DNA of 64,000 nucleotides from Lingula anatina (lineage: Eukaryota; Animalia; Brachiopoda). Each line of letters opens with the position of its first letter. Positions within the stretch are counted from its first letter, which is position 1. Below are positions 10,901-15,537 of this stretch, in pieces. A model generated the notes under the pieces. That model worked only from the letters and a program-made list of their open reading frames with translations. It had not been told where the DNA came from and ran no database searches. The stretch lies in the NCBI GenBank assembly GCA_051362555.1, contig CM120640.1, positions 32,817,967 through 32,881,966 on the forward strand, read 5' to 3'. The translations under genes and the position numbers were made by a program.

Positions 10901-11916
10901 CAGTACCAGTTTCTTTCACAACACAAATGAAGGCCACATGCCAAAAAACAACCTAAATTAATCTCTTGGGCAGCAGAAAAAAGGCTTTAAACTGCACCTT
11001 TTTTTAAATTCTGATAATAAATAAAATCTATTGAATATCCCTCCAGTCTGCAAACTTCAAAGCACAGAGAATAATCAGAAATTGTCTGCGTAAAAAAAAA
11101 CATTTTTCAGGAAATAATGCAGCCAAAGTTATTCTATTTGAAACTATGTGCTGGCATTTCATCAGGTGCAGCTACAATGATTTGACATAAGGGCTCACTT
11201 ACAATGCATCTGAAACTTTACCTTTTTTGTTTAGACTCAGGATTTTTAAAAATGTAAATTATATAGTGCTAGCTAGCAGCTAACTATTCAACCTAGGAAT
11301 TATTAAACTTATTCATTGGAACATCGCCAGTTTGATCAATTGAATAGAGGGTAAATCGGAAAGTTTGACAGCATACAATAGACAGCAAAGTTGGTGACAA
11401 TTCTAATCAGACAATTCTAATCTGGTGTGACAGTCCAACAAAAGGAAGCCCGAGGTCCCATTAGGGTTAGTTGGAGTCCCCTGTACAAATTAATGGGGAG
11501 TGGACTATGGCTCCTAGTGGTATATCATTCCTGCCACACTGGCCACATCATGCCAGACTCCTAGCTTTCATGACATGCTGTTTTGCCCTAGGGTTTATGC
11601 CATGGTCTACTGTAAATGCCTTGTCAAGTCAAAAAATATCAAGTCTTGATATTTATTGTCATATGATATTCTAATTTAGTTGTATGTGTACAGTGATTAC
11701 AAGCATTTGTGCATGCATAAAATACTAAACACCATCACTTAAAAGTAAAAAGTAAGTTGTTTTTATTGAAAACCCCACACATTGTTTAAAGTTGGGAATC
11801 TGACCTAAGTTTGCCTCAACAATTCTAAAAGTCAGGTTTCTGCTATCATTAAATACTTACACAAGGAGCTTGTCCTCGAAAGTTGTTGCAAAGTATTCTT
11901 CCAAATTAACTGTCAT
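7514..11916 (-). CDS. CCDC42: Coiled-coil domain-containing protein 42 / CFAP73 family, ciliary (8 exons, ~314 aa)
   Basis: Exons 11916-11861, 9938-9728, 9379-9294, 9059-8888, 8524-8450, 8266-8109, 7873-7783, 7609-7514, total 945 nt in frame. MTVNLEEYF...[15 protein letters not shown]...[18 protein letters not shown]...[24 protein letters not shown] is diagnostic of the family. Confidence 0.9.
7936..7981. repeat. Poly(A) tract
   Basis: About 45 consecutive A in a CCDC42 intron. Confidence 0.9.
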
Positions 11917-12073
11917 TTTGGCCGTGGGCTTAAAAATATTAATAAATAAAACAGTACAAGTGATTATGTGCTGTCACTTAATCCAATATGGCGCTGTTAC
12001 TATGCCCACGACGCTTTCCGAATGGTGGCGGATATTGACGAAGATACCAAACGACCTTGACCGAACTAGTAAA
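11917..12073. promoter_or_regulatory. Compact bidirectional promoter for CCDC42 and NipSnap with an RFX X-box-like site
   Basis: Only 157 bp separate the divergent ATGs. CpG-enriched. CCAAT at 11983-11987, YY1-like ATATGGCG, X-box-like GTTACTATGCCCAC at 11996-12009. Confidence 0.7.
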
Positions 12074-15000
12074 ATGGCTGTTCCAACCAAGGCACTTCTG
12101 CTGCGTAAAACTTTGTCTTTATCACCTGCACTTGCAAAATGTCATTGTCCGGTAATGCAACTTTCAAGGTAAGTATTATTCTGAGCTTGTGCCCTTCAGA
12201 TCGAAAGAATGTTAGAAAAATGCGCCACAATTTACAACGGTCATCAGATGTACCTTATTTTGCAAAAAGATGTTTACACATACTTGACTTGCTTAAGTTG
12301 TTGACGTTGTAAAATTATGTTTTCCTGTAGCTTTTCTCTGTGATTTATCTTCATCTTAATATGTGCTTACGTGGCGAATATGAATTCTCGGTGCATATTA
12401 TATTAACCTGCTATTGAAACTACTTTTTTCTTTTAAAACATTAAATGGGACATACTATGGAATGTGGCTTTTGTCGTTTTTTCCTCTATTCTCATAAGAT
12501 ATTATAGTATCTGCTTATACTAATGGGACAATGTCTTGACTTATCAACTAGCAATAGTCATTTTGCATTATATTCTACTATTTACTGGGTATGTCAATTT
12601 TTTTGCAGAAAAGTTTCTGCATCTGTGCCACTTTCTCAGTCTGGAGAAGGAACGAAGAAGCCTAGTATATTTAGCAAGCTATTTGTTCGTGAAGTAGAGA
12701 CTGGAAAGGAGCCCCAGTCAAAGGCCCTGTCTGACATGGAGAATGTCTATGAGATAATTAGTAAGAAGATTTCATAGGTTTGGGTAGCATGTAGTGCTCT
12801 GCTGAGTGTGTGTGCCCCAATCTTGCTTCCTTCCTTTCCTTCCAATATTTGGTATGAATGCACCAAATCCAATTTGCTTGCAGGCTTTTGAAAGCATGGT
12901 TGCCAACTGTATATATAAGGCTTGAAATTTGTATTTGGGCCACTTATTTCTTTTTTTTCTAGCATTATTCAATCAGAAATGACACAAGAGAAAACAGATG
13001 TACCAGTAGCTGTTTTGAAATCTTTGTTGGCAACCCTGCATACACTTTTTCATATCTTTTTTAACAGATTGAATTTCACAAATGTTTTTATGCACTTTAA
13101 ATATAACATTGTGTGCAGTGTTTATTTTTTCCCAGGTAGAAGAATGCCAATCTGCAATATGAAGACCAGGCTGCATTTTTGCATGATATTTTACAAACTT
13201 ATGTCTGGATAATATCTTTAATAGTGTAGAAACACTTCCCTTTTAGGTGCCTGTCCACAACATTTCCTGCATTTCAAGCAGATGGTGAAGATGGGAAGAA
13301 ACAAGGCCTTTTTAGCAGCTTGTTTGTTCGTAAAATAGAAGCTACTCATGTGACTCAATCTAAACTGTTGTCAGAGCCAGGAGATGTATATCAAATACAA
13401 TGTATGGAAATTTAAAAGATCAGTATATTATCAAAAATAGATTTGCTATATATGTATATATCTCTAGTACCTAGCAATGATTTTCTATAATGATTATTCT
13501 TTTGATTTGAATTAGCTTGATTTATATTTGTATTATTTAAAAGATATAAATAATTTCCTAGTTGTATTATTTGATTTCAGTCCATTCAGTGAAGCCAGAA
13601 TGCATGGAAGCATACCTAAAGCAGTTGTAAGTAGAGATTAGGTATTTTGAATAGTTCATGCAATGAAGATTGATGTAAATTCGGTATTTGTGACATTTGG
13701 CAGGATCCTCTCTTTTTAGTGTCAGTTATTTCAAGTTGTCTACTTTTATACAAGGTTCGTCTTTGATGAAGAATGCTTGTTTTTATCTTGTGTCCTTTTG
13801 TCTGTATCTTCAGTGGTACATTTGTGGATCTTATGAAGTCAAAAGATACTGGAGCAAGCTTAGTTGGCAGCTGGACAGTAGAGATTGGGGATCAAGATGA
13901 AGCAAGTATGTGTTATGTAGAAAACTTCTTCACGTGTACCATTCTGTTTAATCGAGTAAAGTAGCACAGTTTTAACCCTATTAGCAGTGTAAGTGTTTCA
14001 TTTATTTATTTTGCATTTATTTAATATTATTGTTTTTTTAATCTTAATTTATTTAACAATAAAAGTCTTTGTGAAGACCTGTTTTTGTTACTTTTTAGTT
14101 CATGTATGGAAATACGAAGGTGGATACCCTGTGTTGAATGATGCAACATATATATACAGGACAGATAAAGTAAGTCCCCCGGTGTGTATGTGTGTGTGCT
14201 TGTGTGCATGCCTGCGTTGGTGTGTGTGTAAAAACATTTTGTTATCTTGAATTGATAAACATATAGAGGATTTCATTGACTTTTGATTGCAAAGAAACAA
14301 GAGCACTTTTGTCCCTCAGGTCAAGAGTTGACATATTGTAATTCTTCATTCAGGACTTCATTGACTTCCGGTTGCAAAGAAACAAGATGTTGAGAGCACG
14401 CAGAAATCAGATAGTTCTCCGATTTAGTTTCTGGCCAGAGCCAGTACAGAAAGACCCTGGAAATATTTATGAAATGAGAACTTATACACTGAAGGCAAGT
14501 TTTCAAAAACCTCTTCATTTCGTTATTCAGTGGATATTTTATTCTAGATTGTGGTAGGTGTGATGGTTGTGTTTTCCAGAATTGAATATGCTGTTCCTAT
14601 ATTTACTTGAAAATTTACATTGGAACATGTATGTATGTAAACTAGCTGGATTTTCATTATGGAAGAAGTGTTTTTGATGTGTGTGGTATCTTTTACAGCC
14701 TGGCACCATGATTGAATGGGGTAATATTTGGTAAGTGGGTTGAAATTTCACTTTACTTGTACGTCTTTTCTGAAATACTTAAAATCGTGTCAGTGATTAA
14801 AAAAATTCTGAACATTTATGCAGTTGACGAGTGCTTGTGAAGATAACACCAAAATATTAGATTTCTCTATAATTATGTGTTGATGTATTAGGAAGAGAGA
14901 ATTTGGATTTGGATTTTTTAGTTAAAGGATTATAAATTCTCTATTATAGGCAGCGTGGAATTAAGCACCGTATGTCTGGAAATGAAGCAATAGCTGGATA

Positions 15001-15537
15001 TTTCTCACACATTGGAGATTTGCATCAAGTCCATCATTTTTGGTGTAAGTACCTTTATTATTGAATATTTATTTTTTAAGTAAAAGAATTTTAAATTGAA
15101 TTATTTAGAATTTGAATCTCTCTCCAATTGGAATTTCATTATATTGTAATCACATTTAAGTAGGATTTGTAGTAAGAATTCAGATTAAGCATAATTGCCA
15201 TGGTTATTGTAATGTTATTATACATATGATATTATCTCTTCTTTTGATTCACTTTATCATTTTGTTAGCCTATAAATCTCTCCAAGAGCGCAAGGAAATC
15301 AGGGAGAGTGCCTGGGTGAATCCTGGTTGGGATGAAACTGTTGCCTATACAGGTAAATCATTGGAATTAGTTCTGTTTGACTGTAAACTCCCATCTAAGG
15401 AAACCATTGAAACAAATGTATTTTATCAGGTATACAGATAAATAATATTTTTATAATAAACTTCATTTTTAGTGCCTCTTATAAGGACATTGCAGTCTAG
15501 GATACTGGTTCCAACCCCATTTTCTCCATTGAAATGA
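12074..15537 (+). CDS. NIPSNAP: Protein NipSnap (NIPSNAP1/2-like, mitochondrial), ~290 aa
   Basis: Exons 12074-12168, [12609-12760 or 13247-13401], 13581-13626, 13814-13905, 14099-14169, 14354-14494 (GC donor), 14699-14730, 14950-15044, 15269-15352, 15473-15537. Motifs HSVKPEC, LVGSWTVEIGDQDEA, IYEMRTYTLKPGTMIEWG, GWDETVAYTVPLI, PFSPLK*. The N-terminus is basic and free of acidic residues, like a mitochondrial targeting sequence. Confidence 0.93.
12609..12760 (+). CDS. NipSnap alternative exon 2a
   Basis: tttttgcag|...|gtaaga, 152 nt, phase 2 to 1. Encodes KVSASVPLSQSGEGTKKPSIFSKLFVREVETGKEPQSKALSDMENVYEII. Confidence 0.85.
12895..13038. mobile_element. Degenerate MITE / inverted repeat between NipSnap exons 2a and 2b
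   Basis: CATGGTTGCCAAC at 12895 is the near-perfect reverse complement of GTTGGCAACCCTG ending at 13038. It resembles hAT-type CAGGGTTGCCA ends. No TSD seen. Confidence 0.5.
13247..13401 (+). CDS. NipSnap alternative exon 2b
   Basis: ccttttag|...|gtatgg, 155 nt, phase 2 to 1. Encodes CLSTTFPAFQADGEDGKKQGLFSSLFVRKIEATHVTQSKLLSEPGDVYQIQ, homologous to exon 2a. Confidence 0.85.

What the first reader, a model, noticed from the sequence alone, without database searches (positions are those of the whole stretch)
12609..13401. Tandemly duplicated, mutually exclusive exon 2a/2b in NipSnap
Seen in sequence: two intact homologous exons (..KKPSIFSKLFVREVETGKEPQSKALSDMENVYEII and ..KKQGLFSSLFVRKIEATHVTQSKLLSEPGDVYQIQ). 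Both have canonical AG/GT ends, both are phase 2 to 1, and they are 152 and 155 nt long. Including both shifts the frame and reaches TAG at 13336-13338. Skipping both also shifts the frame, so exactly one must be used. Both frames stay open despite heavy divergence, which suggests both are under selection. Established: this segment corresponds to the vertebrate NIPSNAP1/2 region following the mitochondrial targeting peptide, and NIPSNAP1/2 act as mitophagy 'eat-me' signals. Inference: one gene makes two NipSnap isoforms differing in presequence cleavage, sorting or partner binding, paralleling by splicing what vertebrates achieved by gene duplication. I do not know of a description of this.
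Basis: partly seen in the sequence, partly recalled or inferred. Interest (0 to 1): 0.85.

Follow-up and report, generated by a model that had tools for sequence, protein, structure and literature searches.

The report
NipSnap gene with either-or exon 2
A lamp-shell (Lingula) gene for the mitochondrial protein NipSnap carries two old, diverged copies of its second exon and RNA reads show one or the other spliced in, likely tuning what the protein binds; database records suggest molluscs, ribbon worms, an annelid and crabs duplicated other exons of the same gene.

Summary
Observation confirmed. Exons 2a (12609-12760) and 2b (13247-13401) are homologous, GT-AG, phase 2 to 1; using both or neither ends the frame early. 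Across 8 RNA runs, reads join exon 1 to 2a (34) or 2b (156); no 2a-2b or skip joint was listed. Synonymous sites are saturated (pS 0.80, pN 0.35): an old, selected pair. The gene matches Lingula anatina NipSnap, and RefSeq already models both isoforms, so this is a new example of a known kind, undescribed in 10 paper searches. The vertebrate-parallel idea is not supported: NIPSNAP1 and 2 are 25-29 of 35 identical here, and both Lingula isoforms share the presequence arginine. They differ in the N-terminal arm and two conserved first-strand residues, so binding is the likelier target (inferred). The larger surprise: 11 of 21 NipSnap clusters examined show a swapped homologous exon, at different exons by lineage (2 brachiopod, 4/6/10 nemerteans, 8 molluscs, 9 Capitella, 9+10 crabs). 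Independent origin is likely, not shown. The scan held no earlier NipSnap finding, but similar exon pairs in other lophotrochozoan genes.

The parts
12074..12168 (+). Exon 1 coding part: start codon and most of the predicted mitochondrial presequence (net charge +4); shared by both isoforms; ends in phase 2 within the Arg32 codon
   Evidence: RNA joints from 12168
12609..12760 (+). Exon 2a, 152 nt, minor alternative (34 of 190 exon-1 joints; 0-53% by run); gives the 290-aa isoform (RefSeq X2 type)
12761..13246 (+). 486-nt GT-AG intron between the two copies; branch-point-like motif 26 nt before 2b, so no steric block is evident
13247..13401 (+). Exon 2b, 155 nt, major alternative (156 of 190 exon-1 joints); gives the 291-aa isoform (RefSeq X1 type)
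13336..13338 (+). Premature TAG reached if 2a and 2b are both included (8 junctions downstream)
13581..13626 (+). Exon 3 (46 nt), common acceptor of 2a and 2b; completes strand 1 of NIPSNAP repeat 1
13898..13900 (+). Premature TGA in exon 4 reached if both copies are skipped (6 junctions downstream)
13814..15537 (+). Constitutive exons 4-10 (13814-13905, 14099-14169, 14354-14494, 14699-14730, 14950-15044, 15269-15352, 15473-15537 stop), each single-copy here; intron 6 is GC-AG

Best explanation
An old tandem duplication of exon 2 left two selected copies that RNA reads show spliced as either-or alternatives (2b major, 2a minor and variable between samples), giving two NipSnap proteins with the same predicted fold that likely enter mitochondria by the same presequence and likely differ in ligand or partner binding. 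Shown: the exon pair, the four productive joints, the frame rule, selection. Inferred: double-inclusion and skip transcripts are either not made or removed by nonsense-mediated decay, since the 486-nt intron gives no steric block. Inferred: the functional difference sits in the N-terminal arm (short helices 53-57 and 69-73) and in strand 1 of repeat 1. There the family pattern E81-x-Q83-x-H85 mirrors the invariant E193-x-R195-x-Y197 of repeat 2; 2a keeps E81 and loses Q83, 2b keeps Q83 and loses E81. Inferred: this duplication arose on the brachiopod line, as one of several separate exon duplications in protostome NipSnap genes.
For: Joints, summed over 8 runs: 1-2a 34, 1-2b 156, 2b-3 183, 2a-3 28 (4 runs); no 2a-2b or 1-3 listed. 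The 2a share differs among 7 runs with 6 or more reads (chi-square 27.0, p 1.4e-4; p 0.03 after halving for mates). pS 0.80 vs pN 0.35, Fisher p 4e-6; neutral decay kept an open frame and a family score of 25 bits or more in 0-3 of 1000 runs at 0.5 changes per site and 0 of 1000 at 1.0. AlphaFold models have the same elements for both isoforms, mean pLDDT 85.9 and 86.5, in a two-repeat dimeric alpha-beta barrel fold. Family counts in 56 rows: E81 46 (Q 1), Q83 48 (I 0), H85 56; repeat register from hhalign, probability 92%. Both copies lack W53 (53 of 56 rows W, 3 F) and share Q69 and K71 (6 and 4 of 56), which fits a duplication after the split from other lineages. Three genomic loci whose proteins resemble bryozoan NipSnap have a single exon 2 (L052, L074, L075). 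Homologous either-or exons are reported to alter binding rather than fold (PMC7954323, passages).
Against: No function was tested, and NipSnap's ligand or activity is not established in anything read here. That residues 81, 83 and 85 face a binding cavity is inferred from strand alternation and conservation; no contact map was available. Both copies are fast-evolving (branches 0.85 and 1.15 vs median 0.17), and the three variants listed in 2b all change the residue, against 8 of 9 silent in exons 3-10 (p 0.02), which fits relaxed constraint too. The tree does not recover 2a+2b as a clade (42% of bootstrap trees; AU p 0.35, not rejected). In one search the 2a-3 joint stayed under the listing limit in all 4 runs although 17 reads joined 1-2a. 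Tissue labels were not visible, and study P3 animals carry fixed variants, so the ratio differences may be genetic or technical. No other brachiopod or phoronid sequence was identified, so conservation of this pair in relatives is untested.
Confidence: 0.62

Rival explanations
1. The swap mainly changes presequence processing or sorting, for example how much NipSnap stays on the outer membrane as a mitophagy signal.
For: The residues right after the shared Arg32 differ: C33-L34 in 2b (17 and 19 of 56 family rows) vs K33-V34 in 2a (0 and 5 of 56). Exon 2 includes a low-confidence, likely flexible stretch up to about residue 60. I recall, without having been able to read it, that the Dev Cell 2019 study mapped a second targeting signal to about this segment of human NIPSNAP1.
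Against: Exon 1 and Arg32 (54 of 56 rows) are common to both; both keep S35; first acidic residue at 44 vs 45; exon net charge -1 vs 0. Most of the reciprocal changes at conserved columns lie at 61-84, well beyond a cleavage site.
Confidence: 0.17
2. Both copies are kept in frame only because each must yield a working protein where it is used; the two proteins are functionally equivalent and the copies drifted apart under relaxed constraint.
For: Long branches for both copies; mean identity to 22 lophotrochozoan rows in the exon-2 core 0.37 and 0.42 vs 0.55 among the others; 3 of 3 listed 2b variants non-synonymous; vertebrate paralogues are described as redundant (PMC8981085, PMC12220710 passages).
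Against: A redundant minor exon would be expected to be lost long before synonymous sites saturate. Changes hit columns that are 82-86% conserved, and in a reciprocal way. The repeated appearance of such pairs in other lineages suggests a benefit.
Confidence: 0.17
3. 2a is a decaying copy caught by noisy splicing, or the pair is an assembly or allele artefact.
For: 2a is the minor form (1 of 45 exon-1 joints in X8); the 2a-3 joint was not listed; intronic reads after 2a in some runs.
Against: 2a reaches 9 of 17 joints in X5; it is at least as close to the family profile as 2b (33.4 vs 25.2 bits for the core); pN is far below pS; both exons join the same flanking exons in the same runs; RefSeq models both on one scaffold.
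Confidence: 0.04

Closest known systems
Homologous mutually exclusive exons made by tandem exon duplication (PMC9741552, PMC7954323, PMC5740500, PMC3923563; passages read)
   Same: Neighbouring homologous exons of similar length, same phase, canonical sites, one used at a time, fold kept; lengths not divisible by three, as in 60% of human clusters (PMC5740500).
   Different: NIPSNAP does not occur in the main texts of PMC9741552, PMC5740500 or PMC3923563, or in the supplements held for PMC7954323 and PMC9741552. It is a small soluble mitochondrial protein, whereas those sets are enriched in ion channels and muscle genes.
Voltage-gated calcium channel alpha-1 family: ten independent tandem-exon events in human and fly, each at a different exon (PMC9741552, passage)
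   Same: Recurrent duplication of different exons of one gene family in different lineages, as inferred here for NipSnap.
   Different: Those genes are very large with dozens of exons (recalled). NipSnap has ten exons and about 290 residues, yet six Lingula-numbered exons (2, 4, 6, 8, 9, 10; possibly 5) show swaps. Independence is not yet shown for NipSnap.
Muscle myosin heavy chain MXE clusters (PMC3912159, passages)
   Same: Many clusters in one protostome gene, with different sets by lineage.
   Different: Explained there by early gain and later loss, with several clusters per species. In NipSnap most species examined show one cluster, each at its own exon (Lineus two).
Vertebrate NIPSNAP1 / NIPSNAP2 (Pfam PF07978)
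   Same: Same family and two-repeat layout, about 46-49% identity; exon 2 matches the segment after the presequence.
   Different: Two genes rather than two exons; nearly identical to each other in this segment; mitophagy role untested in Lingula.

Membership tests
Homologous mutually exclusive exons (tandem duplication) | Adjacent exons with sequence homology | tested here: met
   Score 92 vs shuffle maximum 48; both match a family exon-2 profile built without Lingula rows at 36 bits
Homologous mutually exclusive exons (tandem duplication) | Similar length, same phase, compatible splice sites | tested here: met
   152 and 155 nt, phase 2 to 1, all GT-AG
Homologous mutually exclusive exons (tandem duplication) | Each exon is spliced to both flanking exons in RNA | tested here: met
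   1-2a in 7 of 8 runs, 1-2b in 8 of 8, 2b-3 in 8 of 8, 2a-3 listed in 4 of 8
Homologous mutually exclusive exons (tandem duplication) | No joint inclusion or joint skipping in mature RNA | tested here: met
   No 2a-2b or 1-3 joint listed in 8 of 8 runs; limit 3 reads per run, 6-30% of each run read. Rare forms removed by decay are not excluded.
Homologous mutually exclusive exons (tandem duplication) | Both isoforms made as protein, with regulated (tissue or stage) choice | tested here: inconclusive
   Ratios differ among runs but sample types are hidden; no proteomics
Sterically enforced MXEs (branch point under 50 nt from the upstream donor) | Short intron or distant branch point next to the first exon's donor | tested here: not met
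   486-nt intron; branch-point-like motifs at 13061 and 13218 only, by a simple motif scan
NIPSNAP family (PF07978) | Two NIPSNAP repeats above the Pfam cut-off | tested here: met
   143 and 147 bits vs cut-off 22.3, two stretches each
NIPSNAP1/2-like mitophagy 'eat-me' signal | Matrix import, outer-membrane build-up on depolarisation, binding of autophagy receptors | not testable with these tools
   Known for vertebrates from review passages; only a positively charged N-terminus is seen here

The most novel reading that the evidence does not exclude
NipSnap is a hot spot for convergent exon duplication: brachiopods (exon 2), two nemertean lines (4; 6 and 10), molluscs (8, kept from chiton to octopus), a polychaete (9, perhaps 5) and crabs (last exon) each separately evolved an either-or exon. 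Protostomes would then repeatedly be selected to make two NipSnap forms, and the swapped residues across six exons would map the still unknown ligand or partner surface of the protein.
Probability: 0.5. Interest if true: 0.68.

Novelty: new member of a known kind. Interest (0 to 1): 0.5.

Why it matters
The single exon pair is a clean but ordinary case of mutually exclusive splicing, already in RefSeq models. What lifts it is the family pattern: a small mitochondrial protein of unclear biochemical activity seems to have gained swappable exons several times, at different places in its two-repeat fold. Such recurrence is reported mainly for ion channels and muscle genes (PMC9741552). If it holds, it says many invertebrates need two NipSnap forms, and it supplies natural isoform pairs that differ by only 9-31 alignment positions, with which to find what NipSnap binds and how that ties to mitochondrial quality control.

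Tried and rejected
No whole genome is held for the window, so no genome-wide baseline for such exon pairs could be computed. The run search listed no RNA holder by index; raw-read runs of the same species label were laid instead, 8 of 9. Searches for the pair in other brachiopods or phoronids found nothing: 2b alone against longer proteins gave 1 hit among 3 candidates, Lingula itself; the 2a+2b alignment against 27-90 aa proteins gave no candidate; these word-based searches are weak. A tree of the exon-2 core (58 rows, 35 columns) left the origin open. Log-corrected dS could not be estimated because of saturation. Steric exclusion was rejected. Intron pairing as a selector was not supported: best 40-nt duplexes were within shuffle range for intron 1/2 and 2/3 and marginal for 1/3 (-21.2 vs shuffle minimum -20.1, 12 shuffles), and the hairpin at 12898-13035 has z -1.56. 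A 2a/2b to NIPSNAP1/2 correspondence was rejected. The 13903-14099 joint with two other letters is read as a silent allele at the end of exon 4, not a splice variant (sequence). An LIR-like motif unique to 2a lies inside strand 1 and is treated as chance. No solved eukaryotic NipSnap was found by sequence; 6 hits, all short single-repeat proteins. No complex prediction, representative search or Atlas search was run. Papers: 10 searches listed none on NipSnap exon duplication; the Drosophila MXE survey (Nat Commun 2013) and both Abudu 2019 papers were not held. The gene lists in supplements of PMC9741552 and PMC7954323 were only partly held as text, and MetazExp (PMC8728262, listing only) mentions Lingula, so the event or a fly counterpart may be tabulated where I could not see.

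Full report
Observation. The window holds a ten-exon gene on the + strand from ATG 12074 to TGA 15537. Exons 2a (12609-12760, 152 nt) and 2b (13247-13401, 155 nt) have AG/GT ends and phase 2 to 1. Their peptides are homologous (score 92; maximum 48 in 5000 shuffles). With 2a the frame gives 290 aa and with 2b 291 aa; with both it stops at TAG 13336-13338 (112 aa), and with neither at TGA 13898-13900 (75 aa) (one search used wrong downstream exon ends, so only its both-included stop stands). A family profile of exon 2 finds two matches in the whole window; profiles of exons 4, 5, 6, 8, 9 and 10 find one each.

Identity. The 2b peptide matches Lingula anatina 'protein NipSnap-like isoform X1' at 100%. 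Its cluster holds X1 (XP_013381635.1, 291 aa), X2 (XP_013381644.1, 290 aa) and XP_013410512.1. The window's 2b model equals the last exactly, and X1 and X2 equal the 2b and 2a models except M28I; run X4 carries that variant, so these are probably allelic scaffolds (inference). Both isoforms are therefore already in automatic annotation. Both pass Pfam NIPSNAP with two stretches.

RNA. Eight of nine listed raw-read runs were laid, 6-30% of each read. Exon 1 to 2a / exon 1 to 2b reads: X1 2/4, X2 0/1, X4 6/13, X5 9/8, X6 3/13, X7 9/36, X8 1/44, X9 4/37; totals 34 and 156. 2a to 3 was 4, 11, 5, 8 in X1, X4, X7, X2 and under the listing limit in the four runs; 2b to 3 totalled 183. No 2a-2b and no 1-3 joint was listed in any run (limit 3 reads from 2 starts). 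The 2a share differs among the 7 runs with at least 6 reads (X2 dropped; p 1.4e-4, or 0.03 when halved for mate pairs), and between studies P2 (18 of 52) and P3 (14 of 131). Sample types are hidden and P3 animals carry fixed variants, so tissue regulation is not shown.

Selection and age. Over 50 codon pairs, identity is 27, 37 and 18 at codon positions 1, 2 and 3; pS is 0.80 (saturated) and pN 0.35 (p 4e-6). Neutral decay without indels kept an open frame and a 25-bit family score in 3 and 12 of 1000 runs at 0.3 changes per site, 0 and 3 at 0.5, and 0 at 1.0. Against pure stasis: both copies have long branches, are among the least family-like exon-2 cores of 22 lophotrochozoan rows, and the three listed 2b variants (E46K, S74A, P76S) all change the residue while 8 of 9 in exons 3-10 are silent (one search hid 11 further variant rows). 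The one listed 2a variant is silent, at low depth.

What the exon encodes. Both AlphaFold models give a low-confidence tail, helices at 53-57 and 69-73, and a strand 78-87 that begins in exon 2 and ends in exon 3; all later elements are the same. The fold is a two-repeat dimeric alpha-beta barrel, close to bacterial NIPSNAP proteins and putative monooxygenases. Profile comparison aligns residues 81, 83, 85 of repeat 1 with E193, R195, Y197 of repeat 2, which are invariant in 56 of 56 rows; repeat 1 has E 46, Q 48, H 56 of 56. 2a reads E-I-H and 2b Q-Q-H. At 66, 67, 75 and 77 2a keeps the consensus, and at 61, 62, 72 and 84 2b does. That these strand residues line a binding site is inference from alternation and conservation. 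The presequence in exon 1 and Arg32 are shared; 2b follows with a family-typical C-L, 2a with an atypical K-V, so a processing difference is possible but is not the main signal. The vertebrate parallel fails: NIPSNAP1 and 2 rows share 25-29 of 35 core residues, 2a and 2b 15 of 33, and each copy is 10-16 of 33 identical to either paralogue.

How exclusion is kept. The intron between the copies is 486 nt with a branch-point-like motif 26 nt before 2b, so steric blocking (under 50 nt; PMC5740500, passage) does not apply, and no convincing RNA pairing was found. Splicing-factor choice with nonsense-mediated decay as a back-up is the likely means (inferred; 8 and 6 junctions lie downstream of the two early stops).

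The family pattern. I looked up 21 clusters, chosen for having several members or isoform names, so this is an enriched sample. Eleven show a homologous block swap: Lingula, Lineus, Tubulanus, Liolophura, Pomacea, Crassostrea (a partly fused model), Aplysia, Haliotis, a Capitella-like cluster, Octopus and portunid crabs. Ten do not: Watersipora, Bugula, spiders, butterflies and moths, centipedes, sharks and rays, and four unnamed clusters (at most 15 members listed per cluster). Of 16 same-source pairs picked from these results and (Argopecten) and scored on Lingula's exon map, 13 differ only inside one exon: 2 (Lingula), 4 (Tubulanus), 6 and 10 (Lineus), 8 (chiton, three Haliotis, Pomacea, Aplysia, Argopecten, Octopus) and 9 (two transcripts filed under Ancora sagittata that cluster with Capitella teleta, probably host RNA; inference). 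The three crab pairs differ only in 9+10. Five mollusc gene models hold two exon-8 copies in tandem (Nucella, Batillaria, Elysia crispata, Tegillarca, Crassostrea), and gastropod exon-8 copies group by copy type rather than by species in a weak 31-column tree (groups were named after seeing the sequences, and 4 named rows such as Argopecten X2 and Octopus X2 were missed by the extraction pattern, along with other rows). Contig L018 has two tandem last exons separated by a short spacer ending in AG. Capitella teleta and the Capitella-like transcripts also differ at 8 of 23 positions of exon 5 but 0 in exons 3, 4, 7, 8 and 10, which hints at another pair. For these other species I saw protein records only, not reads or gene structures.

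Independent or ancestral. For independence: different exons by lineage; Lingula has no second copy of the others apart from a recent 36-nt fragment of exon 6; bryozoan-like genomic loci show single copies of the exons they cover; the two Lingula copies share rare states (loss of W53, Q69, K71). Against or open: the tree does not resolve it, the myosin precedent favours early gain and loss (PMC3912159, passages), and earlier notes of this scan report similar exon pairs in several other lophotrochozoan genes (unchecked), so the background rate may be higher than in human or fly (236 and 154 events; PMC9741552, passage).

Literature. Ten searches listed no paper on NipSnap exon duplication. I read passages of PMC9741552, PMC7954323, PMC3923563, PMC5740500, PMC3912159, PMC8981085, PMC12220710, PMC13125379 and PMC12842286, and searched the held supplements of PMC7954323 (6 files) and PMC9741552 (1 file) without a hit. 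The fly MXE survey and the primary NIPSNAP mitophagy papers were not held.

Verdict. A real, expressed, old mutually exclusive exon pair: a new member of a known kind. Interest 0.5, mostly for the recurrent pattern across protostomes; 0.68 if independent origins and a rate above background are shown.

Noticed in passing
window 14267-14302: A 36-nt copy (89% identical) of the start of exon 6 in intron 5, with an in-frame stop and almost no RNA depth (zero bin 14212-14298): a recent partial exon duplication that has decayed, in the same gene.
   Followed up: partly
window 14495-14698: Intron 6 has a GC donor (GC-AG) and is spliced in RNA.
   Followed up: yes
window 12761-13170: Sense intronic reads between 2a and 2b in X2, X4, X5 and X6 (depth up to 4.8 in X4), more than in most downstream introns; may reflect slow splicing or retention around the exon pair.
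   Followed up: no
window 13371 and 13377: Two non-synonymous variants in 2b (S74A, P76S) are fixed in all three runs of study P3, with many fixed 3' UTR differences; these animals may be a distinct population or cryptic species.
   Followed up: partly
window 12898-13035: A 10-bp perfect inverted repeat in the intron between the copies; folding not significant (z -1.56).
   Followed up: yes
window 11900-12036: Stranded runs X1, X2, X4 and X6 show reads of the opposite orientation just upstream of exon 1, suggesting a divergent neighbouring transcript from a shared promoter.
   Followed up: no
L018 739-1056: Arthropod-like NipSnap contig with two tandem last exons (9+10 equivalents), the second preceded by an AG acceptor, like the crab isoform pairs.
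   Followed up: partly
proteins P0023, P0149 and unnamed annelid-like rows, exon 5 block: Two sequence classes of exon 5 among annelid-like NipSnap proteins, hinting at a further either-or exon.
   Followed up: partly
proteins P0029 and P0030: Babylonia areolata appears to have two NipSnap genes (79 differences throughout), one represented by each exon-8 type.
   Followed up: no
L064 10001-11389: Probably prokaryotic locus with tandem two-repeat NIPSNAP coding stretches.
   Followed up: no
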